Positions 5,645 to 51,218 of a stretch of DNA of 64,000 nt are shown piece by piece (positions within the stretch are counted from its first letter, which is position 1; every line of letters starts with the position of its first letter). The translations under genes were made by a program, and so were the position numbers. The DNA lies in IMG/VR virus record IMGVR_UViG_3300042477_000769, one strand, 5' to 3'. Source of the DNA: a virus. Taxonomy: Duplodnaviria; Caudoviricetes. The notes under the pieces are model-generated. The model had not been told where the DNA came from, searched no databases, and was given only the letters and a program-made list of their open reading frames with translations.

Positions 5645-6088
5645 ATGATGGAACCGAGAAAAAACCGAAGCGATAAGTACCAATGGATACTCCTCGAAAC
5701 CGCCTGCTCCAACGAAATGCTCGAATCCTTCTGCAACGAAGACAGCATCTCGTCTCGCTTAAACCCCTTTCAATATAATGAAAATCTAATTGATTTAGAA
5801 GATCAATTGAAGAAAGAATTTTGGAGAGTGGTAGAAACTTTGTTAACTCCTCGTCAACGTCAGGTGATTCGATTGTATGCTGATGGTTATACCCAGATGG
5901 AAATTGCTAAGATGTTAAATGTTAATCAAAGTTCAATTACGAAATCGCTGAACGGTAACGTGGATTATAAGAACGGGAAAAAGATCTACGGTGGCGCGAG
6001 AAAGAAAATCCGCAAAATCATCGAAAACGACACCAAGATCAAAGAAATCTTACAGAAAATCGCCGAATGTCGAGATGAAAAATGGTAA
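5645..6088 (+). CDS. Sigma-70 region-4 / sigma-like HTH transcription factor
   Basis: LLTPRQRQVIRLYADGYTQMEIAKMLNVNQSSI; SD GAGGTG at 5639-5644. Confidence 0.7.
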   Translation: MMEPRKNRSDKYQWILLETACSNEMLESFCNEDSISSRLNPFQYNENLIDLEDQLKKEFWRVVETLLTPRQRQVIRLYADGYTQMEIAKMLNVNQSSITKSLNGNVDYKNGKKIYGGARKKIRKIIENDTKIKEILQKIAECRDEKW

Positions 6089-6094
6089 GTCACT

Positions 6095-6934
6095 GTGACA
6101 CTTTGCTCTCAATGCCAAATGCCTCAAACTCAATTTGTGCCCAAGACAAAATGGTGTGCCACCTGTCATCAAAACTATAAAAAGAGAAAATATCAAGAAA
6201 ATTTATCAGCCAGTAGATACTATACTAACCAAAGAAGAGCGGCAAGAATTCAATGGTTTCAACAACTTAAAGCCAATATTCCTTGTACGGATTGTGGAAA
6301 AATATATGATCCCGTTTGTTTAGATTATGATCACGTACCAGGTCGAGGCATTAAATATAAAAATGTGTCTCGGATGGTGTTAGATAATAGTCCGAAAGAA
6401 AAGATCTTAGAAGAAATCAAGAAATGTGAATTGGTTTGCGTGTTATGTCATAATGCGCGGACCTTTTGTCGTTTAAAAACGGCCACTGCTTATAAACCAC
6501 ATCAACAAAGAAATATTAATATAATTAATCAGTTCAAAGAACAACCGTGCGTTTACTGTGGTCAACAATACCCTAGCTATAATATGCAAATGGATCATAT
6601 CAATCCAGCACACAAGTTATCTAATATATCACAGTTGAAAAGTAGTAAAGTAGAAATTTTGCATCAAGAATTGGCTAAATGCCAGGTGTTATGTGCTGTA
6701 TGTCATCGGCTTAAATCGATTATTGAACAAAAGGCCGGAAAATATTTACTTGCCAAATCTAAAATTGCTAAAAAGAGGTTATATTTTGATGGATATGTCA
6801 AAGAGTGCGGTCGATGCCGGCAACTAAAAGAACTTAGCTGTTTTAGAAAACATCAGCACACTACTTCTGGCTATAACACTTATTGTATAAGCTGTTTTAA
6901 TGAGTACCGACGACAACGAAGAGCCAACCTGTAA
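6095..6934 (+). CDS. HNH endonuclease with two tandem HNH modules
   Basis: CTDC..LDYDHV..KCELVCVLCH and CVYC..MQMDHI..KCQVLCAVCH, plus a C-terminal Cys4 cluster. Confidence 0.8.
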   Translation: MTLCSQCQMPQTQFVPKTKWCATCHQNYKKRKYQENLSASRYYTNQRRAARIQWFQQLKANIPCTDCGKIYDPVCLDYDHVPGRGIKYKNVSRMVLDNSPKEKILEEIKKCELVCVLCHNARTFCRLKTATAYKPHQQRNINIINQFKEQPCVYCGQQYPSYNMQMDHINPAHKLSNISQLKSSKVEILHQELAKCQVLCAVCHRLKSIIEQKAGKYLLAKSKIAKKRLYFDGYVKECGRCRQLKELSCFRKHQHTTSGYNTYCISCFNEYRRQRRANL

Positions 6935-7778
6935 AATCTATTTGTTAACTAATGTAATCAATAATAAGATTTATATTGGTCAAACTTGGAATTCAGTTCA
7001 CTCTCGAATGGGTAAAAAAGGATCAAAATATAGGAACTCTCCTTATTTGTATAAGGCTATTGTCAAATATGGGGCCCAAAATTTCAAATATGAAATCTTG
7101 GTTAAGTGTTATGATCAAGAGACAGCGGATTATTTAGAAGAATATTATATTAAGCAATATCGAAGTCAAGATTCTCATATTGGTTATAATTTGAAAGAAG
7201 GCGGTCGAGGAGGTAAGCATTCGTTGGAAACCAAAGAAAAGATCTCTCAATCCGTAAAGAAACAATTGGCCAATTTAACTCCAGAAGAGTTATTAGAGAG
7301 AACGGCCAAAATATCTAGTTATTGGTCTGGAAAGCAGCGAGGCCCACAAACAGAGCAATGGAAACAAGAAAATTCTGCTAAAATTAAAGCTTGGCATGCA
7401 GAACATCCACACCCTATGTTGGGGAAGAGTCATTCAGCGGAAGCAAAAGCAAAAATTAAGCGGAGTAGTTTGGGCAGAAAGTGTTCTCCGGAAGCTATTC
7501 AAAAGCGAGTGGCAAAATTAAAGATAGATCAAGAATTAGAATTATCTATTATTATGGCGTATCAGAGTGGGGATCTTATTTCTGAAATTGAAAAAGAATA
7601 TGGGGTAAGAGTATCAACTATTTACCGAGTGCTGAAGAGGAACGCTATTCCGTTAAGGGGATGTGATCAGAGTTGGGTCGGTAAGAGTCATACTCCAGAA
7701 ACCTTGGAAAAGATGTCGAGAGCGAGGAAGAAGTATTGGGAGCGCCAACGAGTGATGGGGACAATTAATCAAGAATAA
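6900..7778 (+). CDS. GIY-YIG homing endonuclease (NUMOD3 repeats)
   Basis: KIYLLTNVINNKIYIGQT, GYNLKEGG, HSLETKEKIS, HSAEAKAKI, HTPETLEKMS. Confidence 0.9.
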   Translation: MSTDDNEEPTCKIYLLTNVINNKIYIGQTWNSVHSRMGKKGSKYRNSPYLYKAIVKYGAQNFKYEILVKCYDQETADYLEEYYIKQYRSQDSHIGYNLKEGGRGGKHSLETKEKISQSVKKQLANLTPEELLERTAKISSYWSGKQRGPQTEQWKQENSAKIKAWHAEHPHPMLGKSHSAEAKAKIKRSSLGRKCSPEAIQKRVAKLKIDQELELSIIMAYQSGDLISEIEKEYGVRVSTIYRVLKRNAIPLRGCDQSWVGKSHTPETLEKMSRARKKYWERQRVMGTINQE

Positions 7779-7818
7779 TATCAATATTTGTTTATCTATA
7801 ATAGGCGTATTTTATTTA

Positions 7819-8289
7819 ATGGGAGACGTAATGTCAAAATTTAGTATAGATTATTCAAGTTTAGAGAATAAAATTTATAAGAAAGCTTATAGATTGAGCG
7901 AAGTAAAAGATAAACTTGAAACTGTGGCCTTTGACATTGTTAGATTCAAGGAAGGCGATAAGGGCGCTGATTTATGGCAAGTCCAGAGTGCAGATGATGG
8001 CGAGTATATTGTGGCTTTATATCAACCAGAAGAGGACGTAAAAACGGCTTCTTGGGATGTGGTATTGAGTAAAACGGCAGGTACTTTACATGTTTCTTAT
8101 AACGGGGATCCGATTGTCAAGGTAGCAGCTAGTAAATTGGGGATTCCGGCAGCTGAGTTAGATAAGGTTCAAAGTTATTTGCCAAATAAATTGGCTACTA
8201 ATAAAAAATTAGTACAAGCATTATTGAATGAATTGCCAGAATCAACTAAAAAAGAGGTATTAAGTAAGTACCCAGAAATGTTAGCTTAA
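7819..8289 (+). CDS. Hypothetical phage protein (probable head-associated)
   Basis: Clean 156-aa ORF at the start of the head-region run; internal VKTA|S motif. Confidence 0.6.
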   Translation: MGDVMSKFSIDYSSLENKIYKKAYRLSEVKDKLETVAFDIVRFKEGDKGADLWQVQSADDGEYIVALYQPEEDVKTASWDVVLSKTAGTLHVSYNGDPIVKVAASKLGIPAAELDKVQSYLPNKLATNKKLVQALLNELPESTKKEVLSKYPEMLA

Positions 8290-8305
8290 CCTTACCATAT
8301 AGGCG

Positions 8306-16442: not shown

Positions 16443-17552
16443 ATGAGTCAACGGTCCTCTTTAATGGCTTGGACTCAAGCCGCTCTCGCTAAACATCATA
16501 ATTACTATGATTATTCTGCGGCAGTGTACCGTGGCAGTGATAGTAAAATTACTATTATTTGTCCGATTCATGGTAAATTTGAACAAACTGCCGGATCACA
16601 TTTAAAAGGTCATGGTTGTTCAGTCTGCTCGTATCAACAACGAGGCCGGCAAAAATCTTTGACCTTATCTCAATTTGTAGAAAAATCTCAATTAATCCAT
16701 GGAGTTACTTATGATTATTCATTAGTAACATTTGTTAATATTTTAACAAAAGTTAAGATAATTTGTTCTATTCACGGAGAATTTGAAATTCTACCCAAAT
16801 TCCATTTAGCCGGCCATGGATGTCAGCAATGCGGAAAAATAAATAAATCTAATAAACTGCGAGCTTCTACTCAAGATTTTATTGAAAAAAGTGAGAAAAT
16901 ACATGATCATAAATATGATTATCATCAAGTAAATTATATAACTTCTAAGCATAAAGTAACTATTACTTGTCCACTTCACGGTAATTTTAATCAAGTAGCT
17001 GGAGATCATTTAGCTGGTTATGGTTGCCCGAAATGTTCCAAATTATACCGTCCGACTACTGCAGAATTTATTGCCAGCGCACAATTAATTCATCAATTCA
17101 AATATGATTATAGTTTAGTCAATTATCAATCCAGTAAAATTAAAATTCCCATTATTTGTTCCGTCCATGGGACTTTTTGGCAAACACCTCATGCTCATAT
17201 TATTGGCAAATGTGGATGCCCTAATTGTAGTAATTGGAGTTCTAAAAAAGAACAAGCTTGGATTCAATCCTTAAATAATCCGAATCTTAAACTTCAACAA
17301 ACTATCAAAATTAATAATCGAATCTTTAAGGTGGATGGGTTTGATCCTGCTACTAATACTATTTACGAATTTTACGGAGATTTTTGGCACGGCAATCCTC
17401 AAGTCTATTCAGCTGAAGCGGTAAATTCCATTAATAAAAAGAAATTTGGAGAGCTGTATTTAGCTACGTTGGAGAAAGAAAATATATTGAAAAATCATTA
17501 CCATTTAGTCCATATTTGGGAATATGATTGGGATTTGTTAACAAAAACCTGA
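16443..17552 (+). CDS. Zinc-ribbon-repeat PD-(D/E)xK-type putative homing endonuclease
   Basis: Four repeats YDYS..Y......ITIICPxHG.F.Q....HL.G.GC..C; C-terminal KVDGFDPATNTIYEFYGDFWHGNP..HIWE. Confidence 0.8.
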   Translation: MSQRSSLMAWTQAALAKHHNYYDYSAAVYRGSDSKITIICPIHGKFEQTAGSHLKGHGCSVCSYQQRGRQKSLTLSQFVEKSQLIHGVTYDYSLVTFVNILTKVKIICSIHGEFEILPKFHLAGHGCQQCGKINKSNKLRASTQDFIEKSEKIHDHKYDYHQVNYITSKHKVTITCPLHGNFNQVAGDHLAGYGCPKCSKLYRPTTAEFIASAQLIHQFKYDYSLVNYQSSKIKIPIICSVHGTFWQTPHAHIIGKCGCPNCSNWSSKKEQAWIQSLNNPNLKLQQTIKINNRIFKVDGFDPATNTIYEFYGDFWHGNPQVYSAEAVNSINKKKFGELYLATLEKENILKNHYHLVHIWEYDWDLLTKT

Positions 17553-17593: not shown

Positions 17594-18487
17594 ATGTTAA
17601 AATCTATCGCTCAAGAATTAGTAATTGTTGATCCTCCTTCGCAGGAACCGCCGTTAATGTTAGAAATGAGCGATTCCTCACCAGAAGATGGTCTGGATCC
17701 GGTAGAAGTATATGATAATTCTATAACTAATCTTCATATTGTCATGGAATTACCTGGAGCCCCACCTGGCACTCAAGACCCTGAACCAGTCTTAGAGGTC
17801 TCGGAAGAAGAACCAGAAGAAAAACTATCTGAGAAAGAATCAGATGAAAATGATGCTAAAGCAGCTAAAAATGAAAAATGGAACTGGGCTAAACATGGGC
17901 CTACGGGATTTATTGCTTGGGTCAAGGAGCGATGTGATGATGTGCCGAAACATTCGGGTTATGATTCGGCCGGTTTAGAGCGCGCTATTGCCTACCTAGA
18001 GCGGCTCGATAGCGAAGTCTCCAAAGCCATGCGCCTCGACATTGATGGAGAATTAGACGCCAATCAAGTAGAAAAAGTGAGAGCGGTCATTGATAACGGG
18101 ACAGAGCGCTTATTAGATCGTTTAGATAAAGTAAAAAAGAATAAGAAAAAGAGTCGTAAAAAGAAAGCCGATGTCACGGATAGTTTGGTGAAAGAGGCTC
18201 AAAAAATTACTGGAGTGCAAGGCGTATTTGTGACGGTACCCTTGCTAATTTCTAGAATAGCTAGAGTATGTATTAATGGTATGGTCTCTGGTGGCCATGA
18301 TATTGAAGATTTATATGAGCGACAAGTTAAGTTCTATAAATTAAATGATCGTGAACAAGCAGAAGTAATGCAACTATTATCTGATATGGGTTATGCTTTA
18401 AAGCAAGACCGTGGATTTATGCCAGAAGATGATTTACATATTGACGATAGTAGCAATATGGATTTTGCCGCTAACTATAAGGGTTAA
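17594..18487 (+). CDS. Hypothetical protein (probable head-associated)
   Basis: SD GAGG upstream; MLKSIA|Q, ENDA|K and VKEA|Q motifs. Confidence 0.65.
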   Translation: MLKSIAQELVIVDPPSQEPPLMLEMSDSSPEDGLDPVEVYDNSITNLHIVMELPGAPPGTQDPEPVLEVSEEEPEEKLSEKESDENDAKAAKNEKWNWAKHGPTGFIAWVKERCDDVPKHSGYDSAGLERAIAYLERLDSEVSKAMRLDIDGELDANQVEKVRAVIDNGTERLLDRLDKVKKNKKKSRKKKADVTDSLVKEAQKITGVQGVFVTVPLLISRIARVCINGMVSGGHDIEDLYERQVKFYKLNDREQAEVMQLLSDMGYALKQDRGFMPEDDLHIDDSSNMDFAANYKG

Positions 18488-19438: not shown

Positions 19439-20152
19439 ATGGGCAAGCCAAAATCCAACACGGCAGAATTTATTGCTAAAAGCAATAAAAAACATCGTCA
19501 TTTTTATGATTATCAACAAGTGGATTATATTACTCAACATATTCCAGTCGTTATCAAGTGTCCTATTCACGGATTTTTTACTCAAAAACCAAAAGCACAT
19601 TTACGGTATGGATGTAATAAGTGTGCCCAAGAAGTAAGATTAAAATCAATTCGAAAAACTAGTGAAGAGATATTATCTCAGTGTTTCTTAGTGCATCAAG
19701 ATCGATATGATTATTCTAAGATGCAATTTCTTTCGACTCGCCAAAAAGTAGAAATAATTTGCAAAATCCATGGGCCGTTTTGGCAGACGATGCATGATCA
19801 TTTGGCCGGCAAAGGCTGTGCTAAATGCATTAATAAAGTATCCAAAAACGAAACTCGATGGTTAGATTTAATGAGCATCGACCCAAAATTTAGAAATTAT
19901 AAAATTAACTTAAGCAAGTCATATTATGTCGATGGATATGATCCAATGACTAAAACTATTTACGAGTTCAATGGTGATTATTGGCATGGTAATCCTAGTA
20001 AATTTTGTCCGGATAAAATTAATAATCATACTAAATGTAGTTTTGGTCAATTATATCAACAAACTTTAGCTAAAGAAGTAGAGTTTAAAAAACATGGCTA
20101 TAAAGTTATATCTATTTGGGAAGTTGATTTTGTGAATATTTATGGCCGATGA
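19439..20152 (+). CDS. Zinc-ribbon PD-(D/E)xK-type putative homing endonuclease (paralog of 16443..17552)
   Basis: IKCPIHG, IICKIHG, YVDGYDPMTKTIYEFNGDYWHGNP, SIWE. Confidence 0.8.
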   Translation: MGKPKSNTAEFIAKSNKKHRHFYDYQQVDYITQHIPVVIKCPIHGFFTQKPKAHLRYGCNKCAQEVRLKSIRKTSEEILSQCFLVHQDRYDYSKMQFLSTRQKVEIICKIHGPFWQTMHDHLAGKGCAKCINKVSKNETRWLDLMSIDPKFRNYKINLSKSYYVDGYDPMTKTIYEFNGDYWHGNPSKFCPDKINNHTKCSFGQLYQQTLAKEVEFKKHGYKVISIWEVDFVNIYGR

Positions 20153-22472
20153 TAGTTTATTTTTAAAATTAAAGAATCAATTGATGATGTTAGATCCGGT
20201 AGTCTTTGTGGAATCTAACCTGACATTAGATGGCAAGCCTTTTAGATTGCGAGGGAATGGATATCGACCCTTTGCGGAGATTTATCGGTATATTGGGATT
20301 AAGGCGTTGGAGCCAAATTCGAAGCCGATCATTATCGTGAAAGGTAGACAAGTGGGCGCCACCACCATGGCCTCCGCCCTAGAAATGTACTTCATGGGCT
20401 CCGGCATTTTTGGCACCGGCAGCAAGCCTCCGGTTCGAATTATTCATGCCTTTCCCCAATTAGAATTAGCGGCAGCCTACTCTAAAACCAAATTAAATCA
20501 AATTATTTCTTCTTCGGTCCCATTACCATCAGATCCCAATAATAAGTCATTAAAGCCCAAAGCTTATATGCAATCGTTATTGGATCAATCTACTTCCACT
20601 AATGATTCGTTACATTTTAAGCAATTTGTAGGTGGTAATCATTTATGGATTGAGTCTGTGGGTTTAGATGGTGATAGAGTAATGGGACGCAGTGCGGATA
20701 TTATCTTCTTTGATGAATGTTTTCCGTATAATCAAAAAATAGCAACTAATCAAGGTAAAAAATCTATTGGTCAATTATATGATTTATTTACCAATAATCA
20801 AAATGTTCCATTAGTTTTAACTTTTAATTTAGAAAATGAAAATTTTGAATACAAAAAAATTGTTAATGTCTTTAATCGTGGAGATAAAAAATTAGTTAAT
20901 ATTAAATTAAGTGGAAGAAAAATTTCATGTACTGATAATCATCGGTTTCTGACTGAATTTGGCTGGAAAGAAATAAAAGATATTCCTATTGGAACATTAA
21001 TTAAAAGCTACGATGATACTTATAAAAAAGTTAGTTGGTTAGTTTTAGATAGCATTGAATATTCGAATGAGACAAAAACAGTCTATGATATTGAAGTAGA
21101 AGATAATCATAATTTTATTTTGGCGCCAAATAAAAATGGAAAGCATCAAGGTGGTCCGATAGTTCATAATTGCCAGAAAACTACTAGTATTGCCATTGGA
21201 AATTCTCTTAAAACTTTAACAACAGCCAAATATGGTAAACCGTCTAAAGGAGTTCAAGTTTATTTTGGAACTCCTAGAAGAAAAGGCTCTGATTTCCATA
21301 AAATGTGGCAAACTTCTTCTCAACAATATTATTATTTAGGATGTGGAAAATGTAAAGAATATTTTCCTCTATATACTCCTGGATCAGATGATTGGAAGAA
21401 TATTTGGATTTATGGATTTATGGTTAAATGCCCACATTGTGGTCATGAGCAAAATAAATTAGAAGCGGCAGAAAGAGGTAAATGGACTGCCTTACGAGAC
21501 CCAGATGATCCGGATTGCAAAATGGTTGGGTTCCATATCAATCAATTATACATGCCTATGTTTAGTCGAGAAGATATGGATAATGAAATGCCGGGGAATC
21601 ATCCTATTAATACTGAACGTGTCTTCATGAACGAAGTTATGGGAGAATTCTTTCAAGGAGATTCTAGTCCCATTACTCCAGAAGAAATTAAAGAGAAATG
21701 TGGAGATGACCGTAAATTTAGTGCTCGTATTGCTCCTTCTCGAAATGGTACCGATCAACAAATCGTAGTCTTAGGTATCGATTATGGTGCTAGAGCAGAC
21801 GTAGAACAATTAGCCGATATTGAAAATTCTAAATCTAAAGGTCAATCCTATAGTACAGCAGTGGTGTTATCGGCTAAAGGCCCAGGATTATTACATATTG
21901 AATTTGCCACTAAATTTAAAAGAAACGATCCGGAAAGCAAAAAGGGTCTGATTGAACAAATTATTAGACAATATGGTGTGAATTTAGCGATTGGTGATAT
22001 TGGATATTCTAATGATTTTTCTCAAACGTTACATCAAATTTATGGGGACAAATATATTGTCTCTCGTGCTCATCCAAAAGTCAATAATCATATCAAATAT
22101 AGTATAGATGCTTTTCCCAAAGAATTAGTCTTTGAAAGAGATTATTATATTGGAGAATTATATGAACAATTAAAGAATGGGATGATTAAGTTTCCTTTTG
22201 GAGACTATGAAAAAATTGCTTGGTTAATTGATCATTGTTGTAGTATGGAAATTAAGCCCTCTATTTCTCGAATGGGGGCGGATCCTCAAATCCATTATGT
22301 CAAGGGCGGAACTCCCAATGACGGATTTATGGCCTTATTGAATGCCTATTTGGCATATAAATTTATCATTACTAAGGGATTTACTAATAATAATCCTATT
22401 TTGCAAAAATCTAATTTTTCTAATATGAATAAGCCATTAGTAACTGGTGGTTATATTTCTCGTAAATTCTGA
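20142..22472 (+). CDS. terL: Terminase large subunit (lambda GpA-like), intein-containing
   Basis: Walker A KGRQVGATT; Walker B IIFFDE; YFGTP; Zn clusters CGKC and CPHC; nuclease VLGIDYG..AIGDIGY..PND. Confidence 0.92.
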   Translation: MADDSLFLKLKNQLMMLDPVVFVESNLTLDGKPFRLRGNGYRPFAEIYRYIGIKALEPNSKPIIIVKGRQVGATTMASALEMYFMGSGIFGTGSKPPVRIIHAFPQLELAAAYSKTKLNQIISSSVPLPSDPNNKSLKPKAYMQSLLDQSTSTNDSLHFKQFVGGNHLWIESVGLDGDRVMGRSADIIFFDECFPYNQKIATNQGKKSIGQLYDLFTNNQNVPLVLTFNLENENFEYKKIVNVFNRGDKKLVNIKLSGRKISCTDNHRFLTEFGWKEIKDIPIGTLIKSYDDTYKKVSWLVLDSIEYSNETKTVYDIEVEDNHNFILAPNKNGKHQGGPIVHNCQKTTSIAIGNSLKTLTTAKYGKPSKGVQVYFGTPRRKGSDFHKMWQTSSQQYYYLGCGKCKEYFPLYTPGSDDWKNIWIYGFMVKCPHCGHEQNKLEAAERGKWTALRDPDDPDCKMVGFHINQLYMPMFSREDMDNEMPGNHPINTERVFMNEVMGEFFQGDSSPITPEEIKEKCGDDRKFSARIAPSRNGTDQQIVVLGIDYGARADVEQLADIENSKSKGQSYSTAVVLSAKGPGLLHIEFATKFKRNDPESKKGLIEQIIRQYGVNLAIGDIGYSNDFSQTLHQIYGDKYIVSRAHPKVNNHIKYSIDAFPKELVFERDYYIGELYEQLKNGMIKFPFGDYEKIAWLIDHCCSMEIKPSISRMGADPQIHYVKGGTPNDGFMALLNAYLAYKFIITKGFTNNNPILQKSNFSNMNKPLVTGGYISRKF
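20718..21170 (+). mobile_element. Mini-intein (Hint only, 151 aa) directly after Walker B of TerL
   Basis: Begins CFPYNQKI; block B CTDNHRF; block F VYDIEVEDNHNF; ends IVHN; +1 Cys; splicing restores FFDE-CQ. Confidence 0.92.
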
Positions 22473-31669: not shown

Positions 31670-32332
31670 ATGCTGAAGACTTGTTGTATGTGTAAAATAG
31701 CTCAAGACACTGATAATTTTTGTCAACACAAAAATAGACCAGATAATTTATCTGATCAGTGCCGACACTGTGCTAAATTATATCGACAACAACATCAAGC
31801 AGATAAAAAGAAATATCCTTCTTCTTCTCTGGAGTATAAAAAAGAATATCGCCATCAAAATAAAGAACGCGCCAACTATTTGCGTCGCTTAAATAGAAAA
31901 AATAATCCAGAGAAACATCGACAATTAGCCAAGTTAAGATATCAAAAAAATAAGCAAAGTATTAGAGAACATCAGAAAAAATATTATTTATCTCATAAAA
32001 ACTATTTTCAATCTAAGAATAAGAATTATCGATTAGCTAACCGAGAGTATATTTTGTTAAAAAATAGAAAGCGAAAAAGATTACTTTCGGGATCAAATAT
32101 CTCACAATTAGAAATTAAACAACTACTAATCAAACATAATAATAGTTGTTATTATTGCAAATGTAGTGTAAATTCTGGTTTTAATCTGCATTTAGATCAT
32201 AAAATACCTTTAGTTCGTGGTGGGCAACATAACATACATAATTTAGTTCCGGCATGTGCTACATGCAATTTAAGAAAAGGCACTAAAACAGATATTGAAT
32301 TCCAAGAAATGAGTATCAGCAATGGAAGCTAG
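31670..32332 (+). CDS. HNH endonuclease
   Basis: N-terminal CCMC..CRHC; C-terminal CYYC..LHLDHKIPLVRGGQHNIHNLVPACATCNLRK. Confidence 0.9.
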   Translation: MLKTCCMCKIAQDTDNFCQHKNRPDNLSDQCRHCAKLYRQQHQADKKKYPSSSLEYKKEYRHQNKERANYLRRLNRKNNPEKHRQLAKLRYQKNKQSIREHQKKYYLSHKNYFQSKNKNYRLANREYILLKNRKRKRLLSGSNISQLEIKQLLIKHNNSCYYCKCSVNSGFNLHLDHKIPLVRGGQHNIHNLVPACATCNLRKGTKTDIEFQEMSISNGS

Positions 32333-32364: not shown

Positions 32365-35300
32365 ATGTTTCTTAAAATAGGTGAAGCTATAGAAATTAAT
32401 GGAGTAGAGAGCACTGAGTCTTGTCTACCCGCTGTCAATCCCGAAATTTTAGAAAATTTCAAAAAAATCGCCTCTAATTTAAAAAAGATTGCCCCCAAGG
32501 CCGAGGACTTTCTCTACTTCTCTGCCGTAATGATGCATGCCGCAGAGGCAGCCGCTCTCAACGATGACGGCACCCGCAAACTCAATGCCAAAGGCCAACC
32601 AGTCGAAGTAGGTTGGGATAAACGAGGAAACACTTGGAGATGGACTTCTAATGACCCCAATGTGAGACCTTATAAAAATGCGAATGGCGATATTTTTCCA
32701 GAAGAAGAATTAGTTAAAGCCTATAAAAAATGGGTAGGAAAACCTCTGTGCATTGATCATAAATCCAGTTCCGTCGATCATGTCAGAGGTTTTATCGTTG
32801 ATACTTACTATGATCGTAATTTAAAACGAGTGATTGCTTTATGCGCTTTAGATAAGGCTGGTTACCCTCAATTAGCTAGACAAGTAGCTACTGGAGTTTC
32901 TAATTGTGTATCCATGGGTACGGCGGTAGGAAAAGCTATTTGTTCTGATTGTGCCACCGTAGCTAGAACAGAACATGATTTTTGTGATCATATGAGACGC
33001 AAATCATGTTATGGAGAAATTAATTTAGATTTAAATCCTATAGAATTATCGATAGTAGTAAATGGTGCAGATCCTAAAGCTAGCATTAAGCATATTATTG
33101 CGGCGGCTAACACTTTAAATTCTTATGTAGAAAGCAAACAACAAGAAATAAATAAGTTTGCGGATAATTTTAGCGCTCGTTTGAGTTTTAATGTTGGGGA
33201 TCAAAGAGATAATGCTTCGGTCACTGATATTGAAGTTAATTCTAGTGATTTAGAAAATTTCAAAAAAGATGTTGAAAAAGCTATTGCAGATTTCCAGGAA
33301 CTGCAATCTTCATTAAATGAAGAAGAAAAAATGCAAGAACATACTAATGAAACTGCATTTGATCAATTGCCAGAAGAGATTAACTCTTCGGCTGATTCTG
33401 GATTGGCTCCCCCACATGCAAGATTTGCATCCGCTAAAGTAGGGGTGGACCCTATTGCTGAGCTTCAAGAGGTCACTAAAGGTATTGAGGCCAAGTTAAG
33501 CCAAATGAAACACAGCTTAGATAAGTTAGTAAACACTTCTACACATACACAAGAGGAAACTATGTCAGGTACAAACAATATGAATAAGAAAGGTTATTAC
33601 CAAGGCGCTGGTGGAGTTAATGAACCTACTCCAGGACAAGCTAAATATCCTAAAGATCCGTTAAACGAGCAATTACGTGAACGGGAAGATAAACAAATGG
33701 TTGGTCAATCAGGATTCCCTGGTGTTGGACCCGTGGATGGAATGCATCCCAGCCCAGATTCGGCAGAACCTGCTAATGAATTAGAGCGCAAAAAAATGTT
33801 AGCTCGGGCAGAATCCGAAGAGCGCGCAGTTCGCCGACAAGCCATTATTAATTTAGCTAAATCAGCCTTAGAGAATAAGCAAGCTTATTTCCAAGGTGGT
33901 GGCGGCGTGAATGAGCCCACTCCTGGTAAAACCAAATATCCTGCTGACAAGTTAAATGAACAAGCTCGTGATAAAGAAGATAAGCAAATGGTTGGCCAAA
34001 AACCTTTCCCTGGTGTAGGCCCGGTCGATGGATTACACCCTAGTCCTAGTTCGGCTGATATGGCAGACGAATTAAAGCGTAAAGAAATGTTACGCCGAGC
34101 CTCTACCCTGAGTGCTAAATTTGCTTATGCTAGCAATAATGACGGTTCGATTAATAAAGGTGATTGTGCGTGGGAAGTTTATCGTGGCGACAAATTAATT
34201 TTGAGCGCTTCAGTTAATGAATTATCTGGTGGAAAACCAAATAAATTATATGCCAACATTGCTACCAAACCATTTGGAGCTAAACTATTAGAAAAAGTAA
34301 AAGCTCATGGAGTAGATAAAGTTCGTGCCTTAGTTAAAAGCGCTCAAGTTGCTCCTGAAATGACCCAAGAAATGGCGCCTCCTGCTGAAGCAGCTCCGGC
34401 TCCGGCTCCTGCTCCTGCTCCAGCTGGATTAGATCCAGTAGAAGACGCAGGTAAATCTGGCGATGTCAAAGAGTCTGCTTCTGAGTTAGCTGAAAAAGTT
34501 AGAGATTTAAGCTCTGATTTAGTAGAAACAGTTCGCGCGTTAGAAGGCGAAAAAGCTGAAATGGGCGAAGTAGATGGCGCCGGTGGCGAGATGGCCGCTG
34601 CAGCTTCCTTTAGTACCAAAACATTAAATTCTTTTAGAAAAGAATTAAATGGAATGTTAACAGAAGCGATGAAAGAAGCGGTAGCTAGTTTAGATGGTCA
34701 TGCGGAAGAATTAGATCTTATTAGTGGATTATATGATAAGGGAGTGGTATCCACAGCCAATCAAGAATTAGTAAATAACATTGCAGAAGATGCCTTAACA
34801 GAAGCTAAGACTGCAGTGGCTGATGGATTCAAATTAATGTCTGCTTTCGTGAAGTATGCTCGTGGCACTCAAGCTATTGTCAAACGTGCAGAAATTGAAG
34901 CTGAACTTGAAGCATTAGCTGAAGGAGAAAATATGGATGGCGTACATAGCAGTAACGATGGCGATGATGATTTAATGGCCATGATTTCTGACACTAATTC
35001 TGAATTAGAAGATGTCAAATCTTTAATGGAAGAAGATAAAGACATGGAAGATGAACATGAAAAATCATTATTTGAAACTGTCGTAGAAGAAGGCGAAGTG
35101 GAAGCTGACGCTTTAGCTGATGATCATAAAGATGATGACAATGATCTCAAGGCTGGAGATTTGAAGCCAGAAACTCAACTCAAGCCAGAAATGTTATCTC
35201 AAGCCTTTAATAGCAAAGCTGGTCGCGCTGCCTTAAGAGCCAAATTAGCTGCTGATGCCTTAGGTAAACAAGATGATGGTCAAGTTCAAGATATGTCGCG

Positions 35301-37078: not shown

Positions 37079-37603
37079 ATGGCAAAACCCAGCATAGAAC
37101 ACGAATTAGTCTTAGGAATGCAACAAGAATTGCAACCTTATGAAAAAAAGCAAGCAATGACCAATTTGGTCAAAGCGGCAGAATATCTTAATTCTGCTAT
37201 GGAAATATTGGAAGATGCTGGGTTAACCGCTAAAGCAGATCGAGTATTAAGAATCTTAGCTAAAATTGCTCAAGAACAAGATATTAATCAGGCTAAACTG
37301 TCTTCAGATGAAGAATTTTATCAAAAAATAATGAAGTGGTTAGATGATCCAAAAACTCCAGTAGACCCAGAACATCCACAACCCGGAGAAGAATTATCAT
37401 TTAACAGTCTATTAACCGAGCCAGCCAAAGATGAATTAACTTTTCAAAGTTTATTAACGCAAAAAAATGATCCTAAACCCTCCAATGATGACTTATTATT
37501 TAAAAGTATCGCCATGGAATTAGATGAAGATGATGAGTTAGTAAATTTACAAGATGAAGATCAAGAAAGCGATGAAGACGATTTATTTGAAGATGCAGAT
37601 TAA
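37079..37603 (+). CDS. Helical-motif protein with acidic tail
   Basis: SD GGAG upstream; shared motif followed by AKIA|Q and DINQA|K. Confidence 0.7.
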   Translation: MAKPSIEHELVLGMQQELQPYEKKQAMTNLVKAAEYLNSAMEILEDAGLTAKADRVLRILAKIAQEQDINQAKLSSDEEFYQKIMKWLDDPKTPVDPEHPQPGEELSFNSLLTEPAKDELTFQSLLTQKNDPKPSNDDLLFKSIAMELDEDDELVNLQDEDQESDEDDLFEDAD

Positions 37604-38460
37604 CTAATTAATTCTAAATATTTAGAATATTTCCTAGGTAAATATATAGTAGCCTCCTGATACATCCAAGATAATAACTTCTTAACTTGCAAATTGCCAC
37701 CCACCGAAAGTGTGGTGGTAATTGTATTTTTACCGCTTAAATGCAAACTCGGCGTAATATTTAAGTGTTGTTGGATAATATTTTTAACACCTTGGCAAAA
37801 ATCATGAGTTGATGTTATTTGCCAGCCCCAATTGATATAGCCCGTGGGTGTTGGCTGTTTCTGGTATAAACAACCATCTCCATCAAAATATCCACGAATA
37901 AAATGTTGTTGCATCTCAACTGAGGTTAACCAAGAAGGGAAAGTTAAGGTTAAACTTTTATTAGGCGTACAGCCTAAGTTAGTTAATTGCTGAGAGATAG
38001 TTTTATTATTTATTTTTAATAGGCAAGCTGGATAAGGAGGATTATCTATTTCTTTAATGATGCTGGTCGGAGAAATAATATCTCTAATTGTTTCTAGATG
38101 AGATTTGTCTAATGCCTGTAATTTGCAGCTAATTTCGTAATGATGTGGTGGCTTAATATAATTATTGCCGTCAGCATATAAAAATCCTAAAATATAAGCT
38201 TTTTCTTGAGAATCAATAACTTGAAAAAAATTTTCATCAGCTAAATATTTGGTAGTATATTGGGTCGTGGAACGAATTGGAATATTATTCCGACGTAAAG
38301 AATTAAGAACAAAAGTAGCCGAACAATTAAATTGGTGTGCTATTTGTGAACTAGTGGATCCAGATTGATATAGATCAATTATCTGGGAAATAACAGTAGA
38401 ATTATATTTTTTTCTTACCATGGTTGGATAACAAGATATATATCTGTAAGGAAAAACCAT
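37600..38460 (-). CDS. Free-standing LAGLIDADG homing endonuclease with N-terminal HTH
   Basis: KAYILGFLYADG and HFIRGYFDGDG. Confidence 0.88.
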   Translation of the reverse strand: MVFPYRYISCYPTMVRKKYNSTVISQIIDLYQSGSTSSQIAHQFNCSATFVLNSLRRNNIPIRSTTQYTTKYLADENFFQVIDSQEKAYILGFLYADGNNYIKPPHHYEISCKLQALDKSHLETIRDIISPTSIIKEIDNPPYPACLLKINNKTISQQLTNLGCTPNKSLTLTFPSWLTSVEMQQHFIRGYFDGDGCLYQKQPTPTGYINWGWQITSTHDFCQGVKNIIQQHLNITPSLHLSGKNTITTTLSVGGNLQVKKLLSWMYQEATIYLPRKYSKYLELIS

Positions 38461-38496: not shown

Positions 38497-39186
38497 ATTC
38501 TTAGGCTAGTTCAAACCGGCAATGCGTTGCCGATGTCGTTTATTGTGGATCCGTCGGCTGAGTTCCAACCGGGGCAAATAGCGGAGCTGACCGTCATCGG
38601 CAACCAAGTCATGGCCACTGTCAGCAACGGCACCGCTCCTATTGGCATTATTGATGATATCAAGACTCGTGCTTTTACCAACGTATCGTGGAATGAGGTA
38701 GTGGTCGTACCTGCAGTTGGGGTACCAGGACCTAATGGAACTACCGTTACTCCGATTGATATTAAGGCAGAATTAAGAAAACCGAATATTGTGCCGTCTA
38801 GTTTTACTTCTACTATTGATGTGGTGTTAAATGCGGAAAATGGAGTTATTAAATTTGTGGCGGGCACTCCGTTAAATTTTGATTTAACTGGCACGGGCAC
38901 ACCGAATGCGATTCGAACCATAGTTAATTATACTTATTATGTGGCTAATATTCCGGGAGATGATAGTACTCAAGGATCAGGTCGAGTAACGGTCTGGTTT
39001 GATAGAATCTTTTTTCAGACTGATCAATATGAGACGAATCAACAATATCCAGTGAGAGCTAATTTGTATGTGAGTGAAATTGGAATGTTAACTACCCGAA
39101 GACCTAGCAATATTCATCCGGCAGTCGGGATGGTGACTGCGCCACCGTCACCCACCTTACCATTTATTGAAGTTTTATGGTACTAA
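38497..39186 (+). CDS. Capsid decoration-like beta-rich protein; probable ATT start
   Basis: The frame of ORF 38527 extends to ATT 38497, 5 nt after GGAGG; (M)LRLVQTGNALP parallels MALKLLQPGTQP of 45830; both carry GSG(K/R)VTxW. Confidence 0.55.
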   Translation: MLRLVQTGNALPMSFIVDPSAEFQPGQIAELTVIGNQVMATVSNGTAPIGIIDDIKTRAFTNVSWNEVVVVPAVGVPGPNGTTVTPIDIKAELRKPNIVPSSFTSTIDVVLNAENGVIKFVAGTPLNFDLTGTGTPNAIRTIVNYTYYVANIPGDDSTQGSGRVTVWFDRIFFQTDQYETNQQYPVRANLYVSEIGMLTTRRPSNIHPAVGMVTAPPSPTLPFIEVLWY

Positions 39187-46534: not shown

Positions 46535-46555
46535 TCTTAGTTAATTAAGAGTATC

Positions 46556-47744: not shown

Positions 47745-47770
47745 CAAAAGCCACCTTACGGTGGCTTTTG
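47745..47770. terminator. Intrinsic terminator after MCP
   Basis: CAAAAGCCACC-TTAC-GGTGGCTTTTG. Confidence 0.85.
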
Positions 47771-47787
47771 TCGTTATATCAATTCAT

Positions 47788-48354
47788 ATGAAAAAATTAA
47801 ATTTAATTGGATTAACTTTTCACCGATTAACTGTGATGGCGGAAGCTCCGGACATTAATCATCGTTCGGCCTGGGTATGTCAATGTGAATGTGGAACCAT
47901 TAAGAATATCAAAACGGAAGAATTACGATCGGGAGGCACTAAATCTTGTGGTTGTTGGAATGTCGAGCAACGCGCCAAACGAGTAAAGAACATGTATTCT
48001 AAATGCATTAAATATAGCCCAGAAATAGCATCAGCGAGAAAAATTTGGAAAACTAGATATCCAGAAATAAATTTTGACGATTTCTATCATATCTCTCAGC
48101 AAAATTGTTATTATTGTAATTCTGCTCCCGCTAATTCACAAAATGTTGCCACTAAAAAATCTTCTCAAGAAATGAAAGATAAAGGTCATTTTATTTATAA
48201 TGGATTAGATCGTTTAGATAATAACAAACAACATTCAAAAGATAATTGTGTCGCTTGTTGCAAATATTGTAATTATGCTAAAAGAGAAAGAACTGAACAA
48301 GAATTCAAAGATTGGATCATTAAAGTTTATCATTTTTATCTTCAACCAAAATAA
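47788..48354 (+). CDS. HNH-like phage endonuclease
   Basis: IGLTFHRLTV..WVCQCECG..LRSGGTKSCGC; CYYC..NGLDRLDN..NCVACCKYCNYAK; start placed at ATG 47788, downstream of the terminator. Confidence 0.8.
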   Translation: MKKLNLIGLTFHRLTVMAEAPDINHRSAWVCQCECGTIKNIKTEELRSGGTKSCGCWNVEQRAKRVKNMYSKCIKYSPEIASARKIWKTRYPEINFDDFYHISQQNCYYCNSAPANSQNVATKKSSQEMKDKGHFIYNGLDRLDNNKQHSKDNCVACCKYCNYAKRERTEQEFKDWIIKVYHFYLQPK

Positions 48355-48676: not shown

Positions 48677-49810
48677 ATGATCGAAGTAAAAGAGATGATA
48701 GCTAATGGTTTTGCTATTAAGAAGATAGCAGAAAAATTACATTTACCAGAAGTAGCAGTTAAACAAATAATAGCAGACAATCAATTATCTTTAGTCAAAG
48801 AAACATTTAGCGAACAACATATAGTTACAATTATTCAATTGTATCAAGAAGGAGTATCCATTAAGGCATTAGCAGAAAAGTTTTCCATTGATAAACGAAG
48901 AATAATCAAATGGTTAACTGAGCATCAAATAACGATTCGAACTAGTTCTCAAGCCATTAGAACCACTAATTTTCAAGAAAGTTATTTTGATATCATTGAT
49001 GATGCTAATAAAGCTTATTGGTTAGGATTTTGTTATGCCGATGCTTATAATTGTGATACTAATAACACTTTCATTCTAACGTTGAAGGGAGAAGATTATT
49101 CTCATTTGGTTAAATTAGCAGAATTATTACACTTACCAAGCAGTAAAATTAAAACTAGTAATTTATCGGTCAACCATAAGATTTATCCAATTGCTTCCTT
49201 AAAATTATATAGTAAACATATTTGCCAGCAGATGAGTTCTTTAGGCTGTCCTCGAGCCAAAAGTTTTACTATAACTTTTCCTACTTGGTTAAGAAAAGAG
49301 CTACAAGTAGATTTTATTCGAGGATTATTTGATGGAGATGGGTCTTTGTGCAAAAGAAAATTAAATAATGAATGGAAATGGTCATTAACTACCACTCAAG
49401 AATGTGGAGAAGTAATTAAGAACATAATAATGGAAGAACTAGGATTAACATTAACCCTATATAATATTTCTGAAACTGGAAATAATACTTTTAATTTAGA
49501 GGCGAGTGGTAATAAAAAAGTTTTAACATTAGCTCATTGGTTATATTCGCCATCATCTGACAGCAATAGATTAACTAGAAAATATGACAAATATTTAGAG
49601 TTAAAGAAACAACAATTAAGTCGAACTTTTAGTCGAGATAGTTATAGAGTTTCTCAGACTTCCATTAATAACATTATTAAAGATTTAGAGTTTTTGACTA
49701 TTATGGATATTTCTCACAAATATCGATTGCATCCTCGAACTATTTTAAAAATACAGCGAAAATATGGAGCAGCGATGAAAATTGCTGATAAAAAGCTATC
49801 GGTTATATAG
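48677..49810 (+). CDS. Free-standing LAGLIDADG homing endonuclease with HTH domains
   Basis: KAYWLGFCYAD and DFIRGLFDGDG; paralog of 37600..38460. Confidence 0.88.
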   Translation: MIEVKEMIANGFAIKKIAEKLHLPEVAVKQIIADNQLSLVKETFSEQHIVTIIQLYQEGVSIKALAEKFSIDKRRIIKWLTEHQITIRTSSQAIRTTNFQESYFDIIDDANKAYWLGFCYADAYNCDTNNTFILTLKGEDYSHLVKLAELLHLPSSKIKTSNLSVNHKIYPIASLKLYSKHICQQMSSLGCPRAKSFTITFPTWLRKELQVDFIRGLFDGDGSLCKRKLNNEWKWSLTTTQECGEVIKNIIMEELGLTLTLYNISETGNNTFNLEASGNKKVLTLAHWLYSPSSDSNRLTRKYDKYLELKKQQLSRTFSRDSYRVSQTSINNIIKDLEFLTIMDISHKYRLHPRTILKIQRKYGAAMKIADKKLSVI

Positions 49811-49832
49811 AGGGTAAGAAAAATGAGGATCT

Positions 49833-51218
49833 ATGTGTGGTATTGTATTAAGTAATTTTCTGTCCCTAGAGGAAGTGTCGGATAAATTATCGATTATTTT
49901 GCATCGGGGACCGGATGGTCATCGGGTGGAGACAATTAATAATTTTACTGTTGGACATTGTCGATTGGCCATTCAAGGCAGATCCTCGTCTTATGATCAG
50001 CCGTTTACTAAAAACGGATTAACTATTGCTTATAATGGAGAATTATGGAATAATAGCGTTAATAGTTTATCCCAAGAATTAGGAATTACCGAGGAGGGCA
50101 TTTCAGATACCGAATTATTTTTATTAGGATTTGAGAAATATGGCCCGGCCATTTTTCAGCAGGTAGACGGCGTATTTGGAGTGGCTATTATTTCTGGAGA
50201 CACAGTGTTCGTGGCTCGTGATTATATTGGAGAAATTCCAATTTATTATTATTGGGAAGACCAAAAGTTATTAGTAGCCAGCGAATTAAAGGTATTTGCT
50301 GGATTACCCTTATCCAAAGTCCAGTTATTACTGCCGGGGCATTATTTAAAGATAAATTCTACTCTAGAAGTAGTTAAATACTATTCCTTACCGATGACTG
50401 AAGTGTCAGATTCTAAAGAAGAAATAATCTCTAAATTTAGAGATTATGTAGTACAAGGTGTGCAAAAGAGAATTCCAAAGGAAGTAGATTACACGGTATT
50501 ATTATCTGGAGGAATAGATTCGACTATTATTGCAGCGTGCTTAAAGCAAGTCAATGCTAATTTAGAAGCATTTACCATTCATTTGGATGTTAATAAAGAC
50601 AAAAAAGTAAAGAATAATGATTTATATTTTGCTAGATTAGCGGCGCAGCATTTAGGAATTAAGTTACATGAGGTGATTATTACTGAGGAACAGGTCCTCT
50701 ATTATTTAGAGGAGACCATTAGAGTGATTGAGGATAAGTCATGGACTCAAGTATCTTCTGGATTACCTCATTTATTATTGGGAAAAGCGATTAAGAACAC
50801 TAATTTTAAGGTAGTATTTTCTGGATCTGGGAGTGATGAAATTTTTGGTTCCTATCCGGCGCAAAAAAGATGGCAATGGCAAGATAATCAATATGACAAA
50901 GCCAGGAAAAATTTAGTCTTAAATGTTCATAAAAACAATACTATTAGAGAAAATAAATGTTTAATGGCCTCATCTCTAGAGATTAGGAGTCCCTTTTTGG
51001 ACCAAAAATTTTTAGAATATGCGGTTAATATTCCAATTCAGTATCGATTTGACAATAAAAAAATGAAACCTATGTTGAGATATGCTTTTCAAGACCTCTT
51101 GACTCCGGAGTTAGCCTGGCGAGAAAAAATTTGCGAAGGCGATGGAGTGGGAATCGAAAACATTATTAAAGCTAAAAAAGACGAAATCAAGAGAATTTAT
51201 GACAAAATTTTTATTTAA
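49833..51218 (+). CDS. asnB: AsnB-like Ntn glutamine amidotransferase / ATP pyrophosphatase
   Basis: MCGIV (Cys2), HRGPD, GHCRLAI, YNGE, LLSGGIDS, SGSGSDEIFGSY, RSPFLD, KPMLR; SD GAGG. Confidence 0.85.
   Translation: MCGIVLSNFLSLEEVSDKLSIILHRGPDGHRVETINNFTVGHCRLAIQGRSSSYDQPFTKNGLTIAYNGELWNNSVNSLSQELGITEEGISDTELFLLGFEKYGPAIFQQVDGVFGVAIISGDTVFVARDYIGEIPIYYYWEDQKLLVASELKVFAGLPLSKVQLLLPGHYLKINSTLEVVKYYSLPMTEVSDSKEEIISKFRDYVVQGVQKRIPKEVDYTVLLSGGIDSTIIAACLKQVNANLEAFTIHLDVNKDKKVKNNDLYFARLAAQHLGIKLHEVIITEEQVLYYLEETIRVIEDKSWTQVSSGLPHLLLGKAIKNTNFKVVFSGSGSDEIFGSYPAQKRWQWQDNQYDKARKNLVLNVHKNNTIRENKCLMASSLEIRSPFLDQKFLEYAVNIPIQYRFDNKKMKPMLRYAFQDLLTPELAWREKICEGDGVGIENIIKAKKDEIKRIYDKIFI

What the first reader, a model, noticed from the sequence alone, without database searches (positions are those of the whole stretch)
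5645..49990. Strand-symmetric G3-to-C3 codon switch at intein junctions and next to homing endonuclease genes
Seen: in an A/T-ending codon background, patches of about 100-200 nt have G-ending codons left of a point and C-ending codons right of it, while NNT (left) and NNA (right) codons stay unchanged. At the portal intein N-junction the switch falls at 23457/8 (ggg acg ggg ttg ccg gtg..cag ctg..gag | tgc tac tcc gct gac acc). It recurs at the C-junction (about 25750), at 38589/90 beside the LAGLIDADG gene, about 20355 in terL, about 17975, about 5680 and 5990 in the sigma gene, about 47515 and 47625 in MCP, C-side only near 32420, and weakly near 49960. Inference: this equals A-to-G on the strand carrying the 3' end at a double-strand break on both sides, i.e. 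a footprint of repeated homing repair (G:T-tolerant heteroduplex or ssDNA deamination). It would map cut sites from sequence alone. I do not recall this being described.
Basis: partly seen in the sequence, partly recalled or inferred. Interest (0 to 1): 0.75.

Follow-up and report, generated by a model that had tools for sequence, protein, structure and literature searches.

The report
Strand-switching synonymous recoding at homing sites
In this giant-phage genome, short stretches beside intein junctions and homing-endonuclease genes have nearly every silent codon position changed to G on one side of a point and to C on the other.

Summary
The core observation is real. A codon third-position scan finds five two-sided G|C switches: 17971, 20351, 23454, 25779 and 38589. 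Synonymous-codon shuffles give 0.023 per shuffle.

The patches are 70-135 nt, almost purely synonymous and specific to this lineage. Relatives carry A/T at the same conserved codons.

All patches lie 4-419 nt from an intein junction or endonuclease gene boundary (p=3e-4). The terL switch falls on a Walker-A site that holds a probable mini-intein in relative L068. The endonuclease-less terL mini-intein and the internal junction of the tandem portal intein show no pattern.

At four-fold sites T falls from 43% to 9% on the G side and A from 27% to 6% on the C side. Leu TTA becomes CTC only on the C side. NNT and NNA "stay" only because the genetic code forbids the change.

The MCP sites reflect family-wide codon bias, and 49960 is not significant.

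Best reading: a footprint of recurrent endonuclease-induced break repair. The strand ending 3' at the cut is driven to G, and its partner to C, by a selection-like force. The molecular cause is unresolved.

The parts
20255..20354 (+). G-rich synonymous patch in terL, left of the switch at codon 71/72 (Walker A, GRQVGATT)
   Evidence: 8 G3 and 0 C3 in codons 46-60, against 1.4 and 2.4 in 80 relatives
20355..20444 (+). C-rich synonymous patch in terL, right of the switch. The switch lies 6 nt from the point where L068 carries a 426-nt in-frame insertion (probable mini-intein)
23361..23457 (+). G-rich patch at the end of the portal N-extein
   Evidence: 14 G3 in the last 25 codons; relatives carry A/T codons for the same amino acids
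23458..23526 (+). C-rich patch in the first ~23 codons of intein A
   Evidence: 11 C3 and 0 G3 in 25 codons
25659..25746 (+). G-rich patch in the last ~29 codons of intein B
   Evidence: 16 G3 and 0 C3 in 25 codons
25747..25881 (+). Start of the portal C-extein. The first ~6-10 codons are mixed or G-ending, followed by a C-rich block that ends at the second portal intein site (C-extein residue 41/42)
38527..38589 (+). G-rich patch in the first 21 codons of g38527
   Evidence: 9 G3 in 15 codons, against 1.9 in 31 relatives
38590..38670 (+). C-rich patch in g38527
17898..18064 (+). Weaker G|C switch at 17971 in g17594, 419 nt downstream of a DUF723 endonuclease gene
   Evidence: S=16, +8/-8
5656..5785 (+). 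One-sided C-rich patch at the start of the sigma-like gene, directly after the GIY-YIG gene
5968..6067 (+). C-rich patch near the 3' end of the sigma-like gene (borderline two-sided, S=14)
4931..5042 (+). One-sided C-rich patch inside the GIY-YIG endonuclease gene
7667..7833 (+). One-sided G-rich patch at the 3' end of the GIY-YIG/NUMOD3 gene
32490..32613 (+). One-sided C-rich patch in g32365, 158 nt downstream of an HNH endonuclease gene
23458..24591 (+). Intein A of a tandem portal intein (starts Cys, ends ..VQYAN; LAGLIDADG domain)
24592..25746 (+). Intein B (starts Ser, ends ..VQGN followed by Ser; LAGLIDADG domain). No G|C pattern at the A|B junction
20718..21170 (+). terL mini-intein without an endonuclease domain. 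No G|C pattern at either junction
4812..5636 (+). GIY-YIG homing endonuclease gene
6900..7778 (+). GIY-YIG + NUMOD3 homing endonuclease gene
16443..17552 (+). DUF723/DUF4379 endonuclease-like gene. Relatives carry no homologue at this position
19439..20152 (+). DUF723 endonuclease-like gene inserted between g18490 and terL (absent there in relatives)
31670..32332 (+). HNH endonuclease gene
37600..38460 (-). Free-standing LAGLIDADG endonuclease gene, 129 nt from the 38589 switch
48677..49810 (+). LAGLIDADG + HTH endonuclease gene

Best explanation
The G|C switches mark places where DNA of this phage lineage is repeatedly cut by homing endonucleases and repaired by recombination. These places are intein insertion sites (occupied or empty) and target sites of neighbouring free-standing endonuclease genes.

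On each side of such a point, the strand whose 3' end points at the cut has been driven to G at every position where the protein allows it. Its partner strand has been driven to C. This is shown directly by the sequence.

The driving force behaves like selection or biased transmission acting on synonymous sites, not like a raw mutation spectrum. This is inferred.

My preferred version concerns pairing between the invading 3' tail of a cut genome and the uncut donor. A donor strand carrying C opposite the A/T-rich tails of relatives makes the least stable mismatches. The tail end then cannot pair next to the cut and is trimmed, so the donor flank is always co-converted. Such alleles ratchet up in the flanks that travel with an element or with a cleavage-resistant site.

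The intein-end patches would then mean that the two outer junctions of the tandem intein are themselves cut sites in allelic, intein-bearing genomes. This last step is speculative.
For: Statistics and location.
- Five two-sided G|C switches against 0.023 expected per shuffle.
- They lie 4-419 nt from endonuclease gene or intein boundaries, p=3e-4. All 12 patches give p<=1e-5.
- Two switches sit on the intein-extein junctions.
- The terL switch is 6 nt from an in-frame insertion site used in L068.
- There is no pattern at the endonuclease-less mini-intein or at the internal junction of the tandem intein.

Derived state.
- 54 relatives with an empty portal site carry A/T codons there.
- Intein-bearing portal alleles have a flank skew index of +2.5 (n=40) against -0.5 for empty alleles (n=54), p=4e-4.
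- L193 (index 17) and L190 (index 12) are further strong cases in other contigs.

Selection-like character.
- 72-74% of four-fold sites are converted, with sharp block edges.
- Transitions and transversions are used alike, including the double changes TTA>CTC and AGA>CGC.
- The opposite base is avoided. C3 is 6% on the G side and G3 is 7% on the C side.
- There is no excess and no direction in amino-acid changes: 3 in 111 and 5 in 132 codons inside patches, against 39 in 1052 outside.
- In yeast, donor mismatches enter the product in a polar way near the invading 3' end (PMC9477423).
Against: - Relatives carrying the homologous LAGLIDADG gene beside g38527 show no pattern.
- 2.1 Mb of relatives contain almost no strong switches. 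A lineage-specific factor is therefore needed and has not been identified.
- The intein-end pattern occurs only in the window. Relatives average +0.8, which is not significant.
- In yeast, chew-back of the invading 3' end did not depend on mismatches (PMC9477423). That undercuts the trimming step of my preferred version.
- Recoded flanks should lower homing efficiency.
- All five switches lie in + strand genes, so a feature oriented along the mRNA cannot be formally separated from a strand-symmetric DNA feature.
- No cleavage site has been mapped.
- The nearest relatives are only about 80% identical in DNA, so individual substitutions cannot be ordered.
Confidence: 0.45

Rival explanations
1. 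Strand-specific mutagenesis during break repair, which is the reader's idea with the chemistry corrected. Each repair event would introduce N>G changes on the 3'-ending single strand. Equivalently, dCMP would be misinserted in the strand synthesised away from the cut. Purifying selection would then keep only the silent changes.
For: - It has the same geometry and the same association with endonuclease sites.
- Many sites in one genome carry the pattern while relatives lack it. That suits a lineage-specific enzyme or nucleotide-pool factor.
- C-biased synthesis starting from a 3' end at the junction would also explain the C-rich 5' end and G-rich 3' end of the intein.
Against: - No known bacterial or phage polymerase or lesion gives T>G and A>G (or A>C and T>C) at similar rates.
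- Deamination is excluded.
- Near-saturation with sharp edges is unlike a distance-decaying error tract.
- There is no excess or directional bias of amino-acid changes inside patches.
- In relatives the extein flanks show the skew but the intein ends do not. Start-of-synthesis errors predict the opposite.
Confidence: 0.2
2. Selection on this phage's own broken ends. Where its DNA is cut by foreign or its own endonucleases, G-rich, C-poor 3' tails would survive or recombine better. Possible reasons are Chi-like attenuation of host RecBCD/AddAB, recombinase loading, protection by a base modification, or fewer microhomology deletions.
For: - The G-rich strand has the polarity of an active Chi site relative to the break (established knowledge of RecBCD and AddAB).
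- The empty terL site carries a full-strength pattern.
- All switch points are continuous DNA in this genome.
Against: - The patches share no oligomer beyond what composition gives.
- G4Hunter scores are unremarkable.
- Empty portal alleles in relatives are the ones that actually get cut, yet they lack the skew, while intein-bearing alleles have it.
- The host and its Chi sequence are unknown.
Confidence: 0.15
3. A translation or mRNA-level feature. Runs of G-ending (slow) codons followed by C-ending codons would tune ribosome speed at domain or intein boundaries, unrelated to DNA breaks.
For: All five switches are in + strand genes and read G-then-C along the mRNA. Two sit at intein boundaries, where folding could matter.
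Against: - The C-side codon choice does not match the preferred codons of the MCP (four-fold T, Leu TTA).
- There is no pattern at the mini-intein or at the tandem-intein internal boundary.
- There is no RNA structure beyond composition, z about 0.
- Relatives encode the same conserved peptides without the pattern.
- Proximity to endonuclease genes would be unexplained.
Confidence: 0.07
4. Tracts imported by co-conversion from a GC-rich donor genome, or ordinary expression-linked codon bias.
For: Co-conversion of flanks is normal for homing. The MCP sites do reflect family-wide C3 enrichment.
Against: - A GC-rich donor would give NNC for two-fold pyrimidine codons on both sides. Here NNY stays T (92%) on the G side and NNR stays A (74%) on the C side.
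- No matching sequence exists in IMG/VR.
- MCP codon preferences differ from the patches.
Confidence: 0.03

Closest known systems
Co-conversion of flanking exon/extein sequence during homing in T4-like phages (review PMC2988022; found, not read)
   Same: Short tracts next to an endonuclease cleavage or insertion site that are inherited together with the mobile element. The scale is tens to hundreds of nucleotides.
   Different: Known co-conversion tracts simply carry whatever polymorphisms the donor had. No rule of G on one side and C on the other, and no near-saturation of silent sites, has been reported to my knowledge.
Strand-coordinated mutation clusters in resected single-stranded DNA at double-strand breaks (yeast, cancer kataegis; own knowledge)
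   Same: The sign of the change flips at the break, because the 3'-ending strand differs on the two sides.
   Different: Those clusters are sparse C>T/G>A changes (or alkylation-type changes) from a single event, and they hit coding positions indiscriminately. Here any base changes to G, the silent sites are saturated, and the protein is untouched.
GC-biased gene conversion at recombination hotspots (own knowledge)
   Same: A transmission bias that mimics selection and enriches G/C at silent sites in narrow regions around recombination initiation sites.
   Different: gBGC favours G and C alike on both strands. Here C is avoided on the G side and G on the C side.
Polar incorporation of donor mismatches near the invading 3' end by polymerase proofreading (PMC9477423)
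   Same: A mechanism that replaces the last tens of nucleotides of the invading strand with donor sequence, on the same length scale as the patches.
   Different: It was shown in yeast break-induced replication and reported to be independent of mismatches. No base preference is known.
Replication-associated GC skew that flips at origins and termini (own knowledge)
   Same: A strand compositional skew that changes sign at a defined point.
   Different: It acts over kilobases to megabases and is weak. The sign here is that of a terminus, it spans 100 nt, and it reaches about 70% of four-fold sites.

Membership tests
   At four-fold sites T falls from 43% to 9% on the G side and A from 27% to 6% on the C side. 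CCT>CCG, ACT>ACG, CCA>CCC and AGA>CGC changes are seen against 69 relatives.
   Five two-sided switches.
GC-biased gene conversion | A/T to G/C enrichment regardless of strand (both G and C rise on both sides) | tested here: not met
   NNY codons stay T (92%) on the G side and NNR stay A (74%) on the C side. Leu CTN is 20% on the left against 78% on the right.
Homing endonuclease target or intein insertion site | Coincides with an element junction, or with an insertion polymorphism in relatives | tested here: met
   23457/8 and 25746/7 are intein junctions, and the site is empty in 54 relatives. The terL switch is 6 nt from the L068 insertion. No insertion polymorphism was found at 38589 or 17971.
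Homing endonuclease target or intein insertion site | Demonstrated cleavage at the point | not testable with these tools
   Needs enzyme assays.
Intein (HINT splicing domain with LAGLIDADG endonuclease) | In-frame insertion absent from orthologues; N-terminal Cys/Ser; C-terminal Asn followed by Ser/Thr/Cys; LAGLIDADG domain | tested here: met
   There are two units in tandem: Cys...YAN|Ser...GN|Ser.
Co-conversion tract from a GC-rich donor | Codon choice of a GC-rich genome (NNC and NNG according to codon family on both sides); donor-like sequence exists elsewhere | tested here: not met
   No exact matches in IMG/VR.
Expression-linked codon bias | Patch codons match those preferred in the most highly expressed gene, and relatives share them | tested here: not met
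   The MCP prefers four-fold T and Leu TTA, and relatives lack the patches. The feature is met only for the MCP sites.
Chi-like hotspot cluster | A specific oriented oligomer over-represented on the 3'-ending strands | tested here: inconclusive
   No shared motif beyond composition. The host Chi sequence is unknown.
Hairpin or G-quadruplex element | Folding energy beyond composition; G4Hunter score above threshold | tested here: not met
   Against arm-shuffled controls, z ranges from -0.6 to +1.2. Only the C-junction patches reach |1.2-1.3|.

The most novel reading that the evidence does not exclude
Homing elements, or the cleavage-resistant alleles that compete with them, may evolve 'anti-pairing' flanks. 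Every silent position of the donor strand that faces the invading 3' tail would be set to C, the base that forms the weakest mismatches. The tail then cannot pair beside the cut, the whole flank is co-converted, and the element stays locked to its flanks. The resulting G|C switch would pinpoint endonuclease cleavage sites to within a few nucleotides from sequence alone, including empty sites and the junctions where tandem inteins form.
Probability: 0.2. Interest if true: 0.85.

Novelty: new variant of a known kind. Interest (0 to 1): 0.72.

Why it matters
If the switch marks cleavage sites, homing-endonuclease targets could be read directly from genome sequence. That includes sites that are currently empty or resistant.

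The pattern also shows a strong, strand-specific, selection-like force on silent sites that is linked to break repair in a virus. That bears on three things: how selfish elements and their host genomes shape recombination, how silent-site composition is interpreted, and how homology arms might be designed for phage engineering.

It also gives a concrete, testable case of footprints at tandem-intein junctions.

Tried and rejected
- Hairpin across the switch. The folding energy equals that of arm-shuffled controls.
- Shared motif or Chi-like word in the G-rich strands. None was found beyond composition.
- G-quadruplex potential. It is unremarkable.
- Import from a GC-rich donor. The two-fold codon pattern rejects it.
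- Expression-linked codon bias. It is rejected for the main sites and accepted for the MCP sites.
- Raw, non-codon G-C skew scan. It is too noisy because amino-acid composition dominates.
- Search for close relatives to order single substitutions:
  - megablast against phage records found nothing;
  - exact patch sequences are absent from IMG/VR;
  - the intein query against JGI metagenome contigs returned nothing;
  - the best protein relative of the intein-bearing portal is 59% identical;
  - the nearest DNA relatives are about 80% identical. Polarisation therefore rests on the consensus of relatives.
- No whole genome is held for the window.
- Rfam found no group I introns and ARAGORN found no tRNAs.
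- A literature search for a prior description found nothing relevant.


Full report
**Context.** The window is part of a very large phage genome with almost all genes on the + strand. Its major capsid protein is 53% identical to that of Bacillus phage G. Hundreds of IMG/VR contigs of 200-480 kb encode portal and capsid proteins that are 75-96% identical. No whole genome is held for the window.

The region is packed with homing elements:
- two GIY-YIG genes (4812-5636 and 6900-7778);
- DUF723/DUF4379 endonuclease-like genes (16443-17552, 19439-20152 and 55157-56128);
- an HNH gene (31670-32332);
- two free-standing LAGLIDADG genes (37600-38460 on the minus strand, and 48677-49810);
- two weak HNH-like ORFs (6095-6934 and 47761-48354);
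- a mini-intein in terL (20718-21170);
- a 763-residue insertion in the portal gene (23458-25746).

I used S = (G3-C3) left minus (G3-C3) right, with 25 codons on each side. Five points are two-sided, with at least +8 on the left and at most -8 on the right:

| Position | S |
|---|---|
| 17971 | 16 |
| 20351 | 22 |
| 23454 | 22 |
| 25779 | 30 |
| 38589 | 23 |

Shuffling synonymous codons within genes 1000 times gave 0.023 such switches per shuffle, and S never exceeded 19. The single reverse case (5803, -9/+8) is the gap between two C patches.

Other sites fall into two groups.
- One-sided but real patches: 5656-5785, 5968-6067, 4931-5042 and 32490-32613 are C-rich, and 7667-7833 is G-rich.
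- Not supported: the two MCP sites are not distinctive, because 66 relatives have the same C3 level along the whole gene. The site at 49960 is within the null range.

**What exactly changes.**

| Codon class | Background | G side (left) | C side (right) |
|---|---|---|---|
| Four-fold, G | 14% | 74% | 7% |
| Four-fold, C | 17% | 6% | 72% |
| Four-fold, T | 43% | 9% | 15% |
| Four-fold, A | 27% | 11% | 6% |
| NNY | 17% C | 92% T | 55% C |
| NNR | 18% G | 71% G | 74% A |

- Synonymous first positions follow the same rule. Leu is CTN in 78% of C-side codons (CTC is the commonest) but in 20% on the G side, against 18% background.
- For the portal, comparison with 69 relatives shows the ancestral codons were mostly T- or A-ending. 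Examples are CCT>CCG, ACT>ACG, GAA>GAG, CCA>CCC, ATT>ATC, AGA>CGC and TTA>CTC.
- The rule is therefore "any silent site to G" on one side and "any silent site to C" on the other. NNT and NNA persist only where the code forbids the change.
- This refutes an A>G-only process such as adenine deamination or tolerance of G:T pairs.
- Lineage-specific amino-acid changes are no more frequent inside patches (3 in 111 and 5 in 132 codons) than outside (39 in 1052). They also show no direction.

**Where the switches lie.**
- The portal insertion is a tandem of two paralogous LAGLIDADG inteins. Intein A runs from Cys to YAN and intein B from Ser to GN, followed by Ser. Their shared junction has no pattern.
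- The two outer junctions carry the strongest switches, and the pattern includes the intein's own ends. Its 5' end is C-rich and its 3' end is G-rich.
- The C block in the C-extein ends at a second portal intein site that relatives use.
- The terL switch lies between codons 71 and 72 of the Walker A motif. That is 6 nt from where L068 has a 426-nt in-frame insertion ending in His-Asn followed by Thr, with weak Hint-domain hits. It is also 199 nt downstream of a DUF723 gene that relatives lack at that position.
- The switches at 38589 and 17971 are 129 nt and 419 nt from free-standing endonuclease genes. They sit in the locally most conserved protein segments.
- The terL mini-intein has no endonuclease domain and shows nothing.
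- Random placement gives distances this small with p=3e-4 for the five switches and p<=1e-5 for all 12 patches.

**Relatives.**
- At the portal site, 54 distinct empty alleles have a flank skew index of -0.5 (sd 3.8). Forty intein-bearing alleles average +2.5 (p=4e-4, not corrected for phylogeny). The window scores 20.
- L193 (17) and L190 (12) are further strong cases in other contigs, for the exteins only.
- The closest relatives with the same tandem intein, L161 and L003, show weak enrichment in the same direction.
- At the second portal site the difference is marginal (p=0.06).
- Intein-end skew in relatives is not significant.
- Relatives that carry the homologous LAGLIDADG gene beside g38527 lack the pattern.
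- 2.1 Mb of relatives contain only marginal switches: 12 G|C against 9 C|G.
- The phenomenon is therefore linked to homing sites. It is weakly recurrent at occupied intein sites and extreme in this lineage. Something lineage-specific is involved.

**Excluded explanations.**
- No hairpin exists beyond composition.
- There is no common motif and no notable G-quadruplex potential.
- There are no introns or tRNAs nearby.
- A GC-rich donor is ruled out by the behaviour of two-fold codons.
- Codon optimisation is ruled out because the MCP prefers different codons.

**Mechanism.**
- The geometry is that of four (or two) DNA ends at the switch point, with the 3'-ending strand G-rich. Three features point to a selection-like force: saturation with sharp edges, equal use of transversions, and untouched protein sequence.
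- My preferred version is inference. C on the donor strand facing the invading tail gives the least stable mismatches against A/T-rich relatives. This would force trimming and obligatory co-conversion of the flank, and act as a ratchet.
- It accounts for which silent changes occur and which do not, and for the skew being found in intein-bearing alleles rather than empty ones.
- It does not explain why flanks that hinder pairing would be tolerated. In yeast, chew-back of the 3' end did not depend on mismatches.
- The intein-end patches need cuts at the outer junctions of intein-bearing alleles. The many tandem inteins in this family make that plausible, but it is not shown.
- Three alternatives remain open: strand-specific repair mutagenesis, selection on the phage's own broken ends, and, less likely, a translation-level feature. 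All five switches are in + strand genes, so the mRNA orientation could not be excluded formally.

**Novelty.** My literature searches found no description of such a footprint. The nearest concepts are homing co-conversion tracts, strand-coordinated mutation clusters at breaks, GC-biased gene conversion, and polar donor-mismatch incorporation near an invading 3' end.

Noticed in passing
window 23458-25746: The portal insertion is two paralogous LAGLIDADG inteins in direct tandem, with no extein residue between them (..VQYAN|SYDEHTE..). In relatives L161 and L003 the second unit starts with Ala. The pair may therefore splice only as one unit. Many portal proteins of 1340 residues or more in the protein collection suggest that tandems are common in this phage group.
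   Followed up: partly
window 20718-21170; L002-L004: The terL intein here is a 151-residue mini-intein. At the same site, L002-L004 carry a version of about 338 residues with an extra central region, presumably the endonuclease domain that has been lost here.
   Followed up: partly
L068:6724-7149: A 142-residue in-frame insertion in the Walker A motif of terL. It ends in His-Asn followed by Thr but begins without Cys or Ser (..GRQVGK|DLAIDTP..). It may be a class 3-like mini-intein. Pfam Hint hits are only sub-threshold.
   Followed up: partly
window 25747-25881: The C-rich block in the portal C-extein fills exactly the 41 codons between two alternative intein insertion sites. It ends at the second one.
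   Followed up: partly
window 56121-63050: A 2309-residue ORF with at least 10 collagen triple-helix repeat regions and a concanavalin/laminin-G-like domain. It accounts for the 55% GC and strong AT skew of 56-60 kb and is probably a collagen-like fibre protein.
   Followed up: partly
window 3306-4798: Four adjacent small ORFs of 106-128 residues. The two I read (4088-4474 and 4478-4798) are paralogues built of repeated 'HREDGPAxE' units.
   Followed up: no
window 14076-16427 and 52457-53689 (-): Two nucleotidyltransferase (poly(A) polymerase / CCA-adding type) genes. The first is fused to a DnaJ domain. A DnaJ C-terminal domain ORF lies at 32-370.
   Followed up: no
window 49833-51218: An asparagine synthase-like amidotransferase (glutamine amidotransferase plus Asn_synthase domains) directly after a LAGLIDADG gene. 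Its first ~37 codons are mildly G3-rich (S=10, not significant).
   Followed up: no
window 4812-56128: Very high density of homing elements: at least 9 free-standing endonuclease-type genes and 3 inteins in about 51 kb, most placed directly upstream of conserved genes.
   Followed up: partly
L193:566-640 and 1874-2008: A more distant relative with an intein at the same portal site. Its left extein flank is G/T-rich (13 G3 in 25 codons) and its right flank is A/C-rich, but its intein ends are ordinary.
   Followed up: partly
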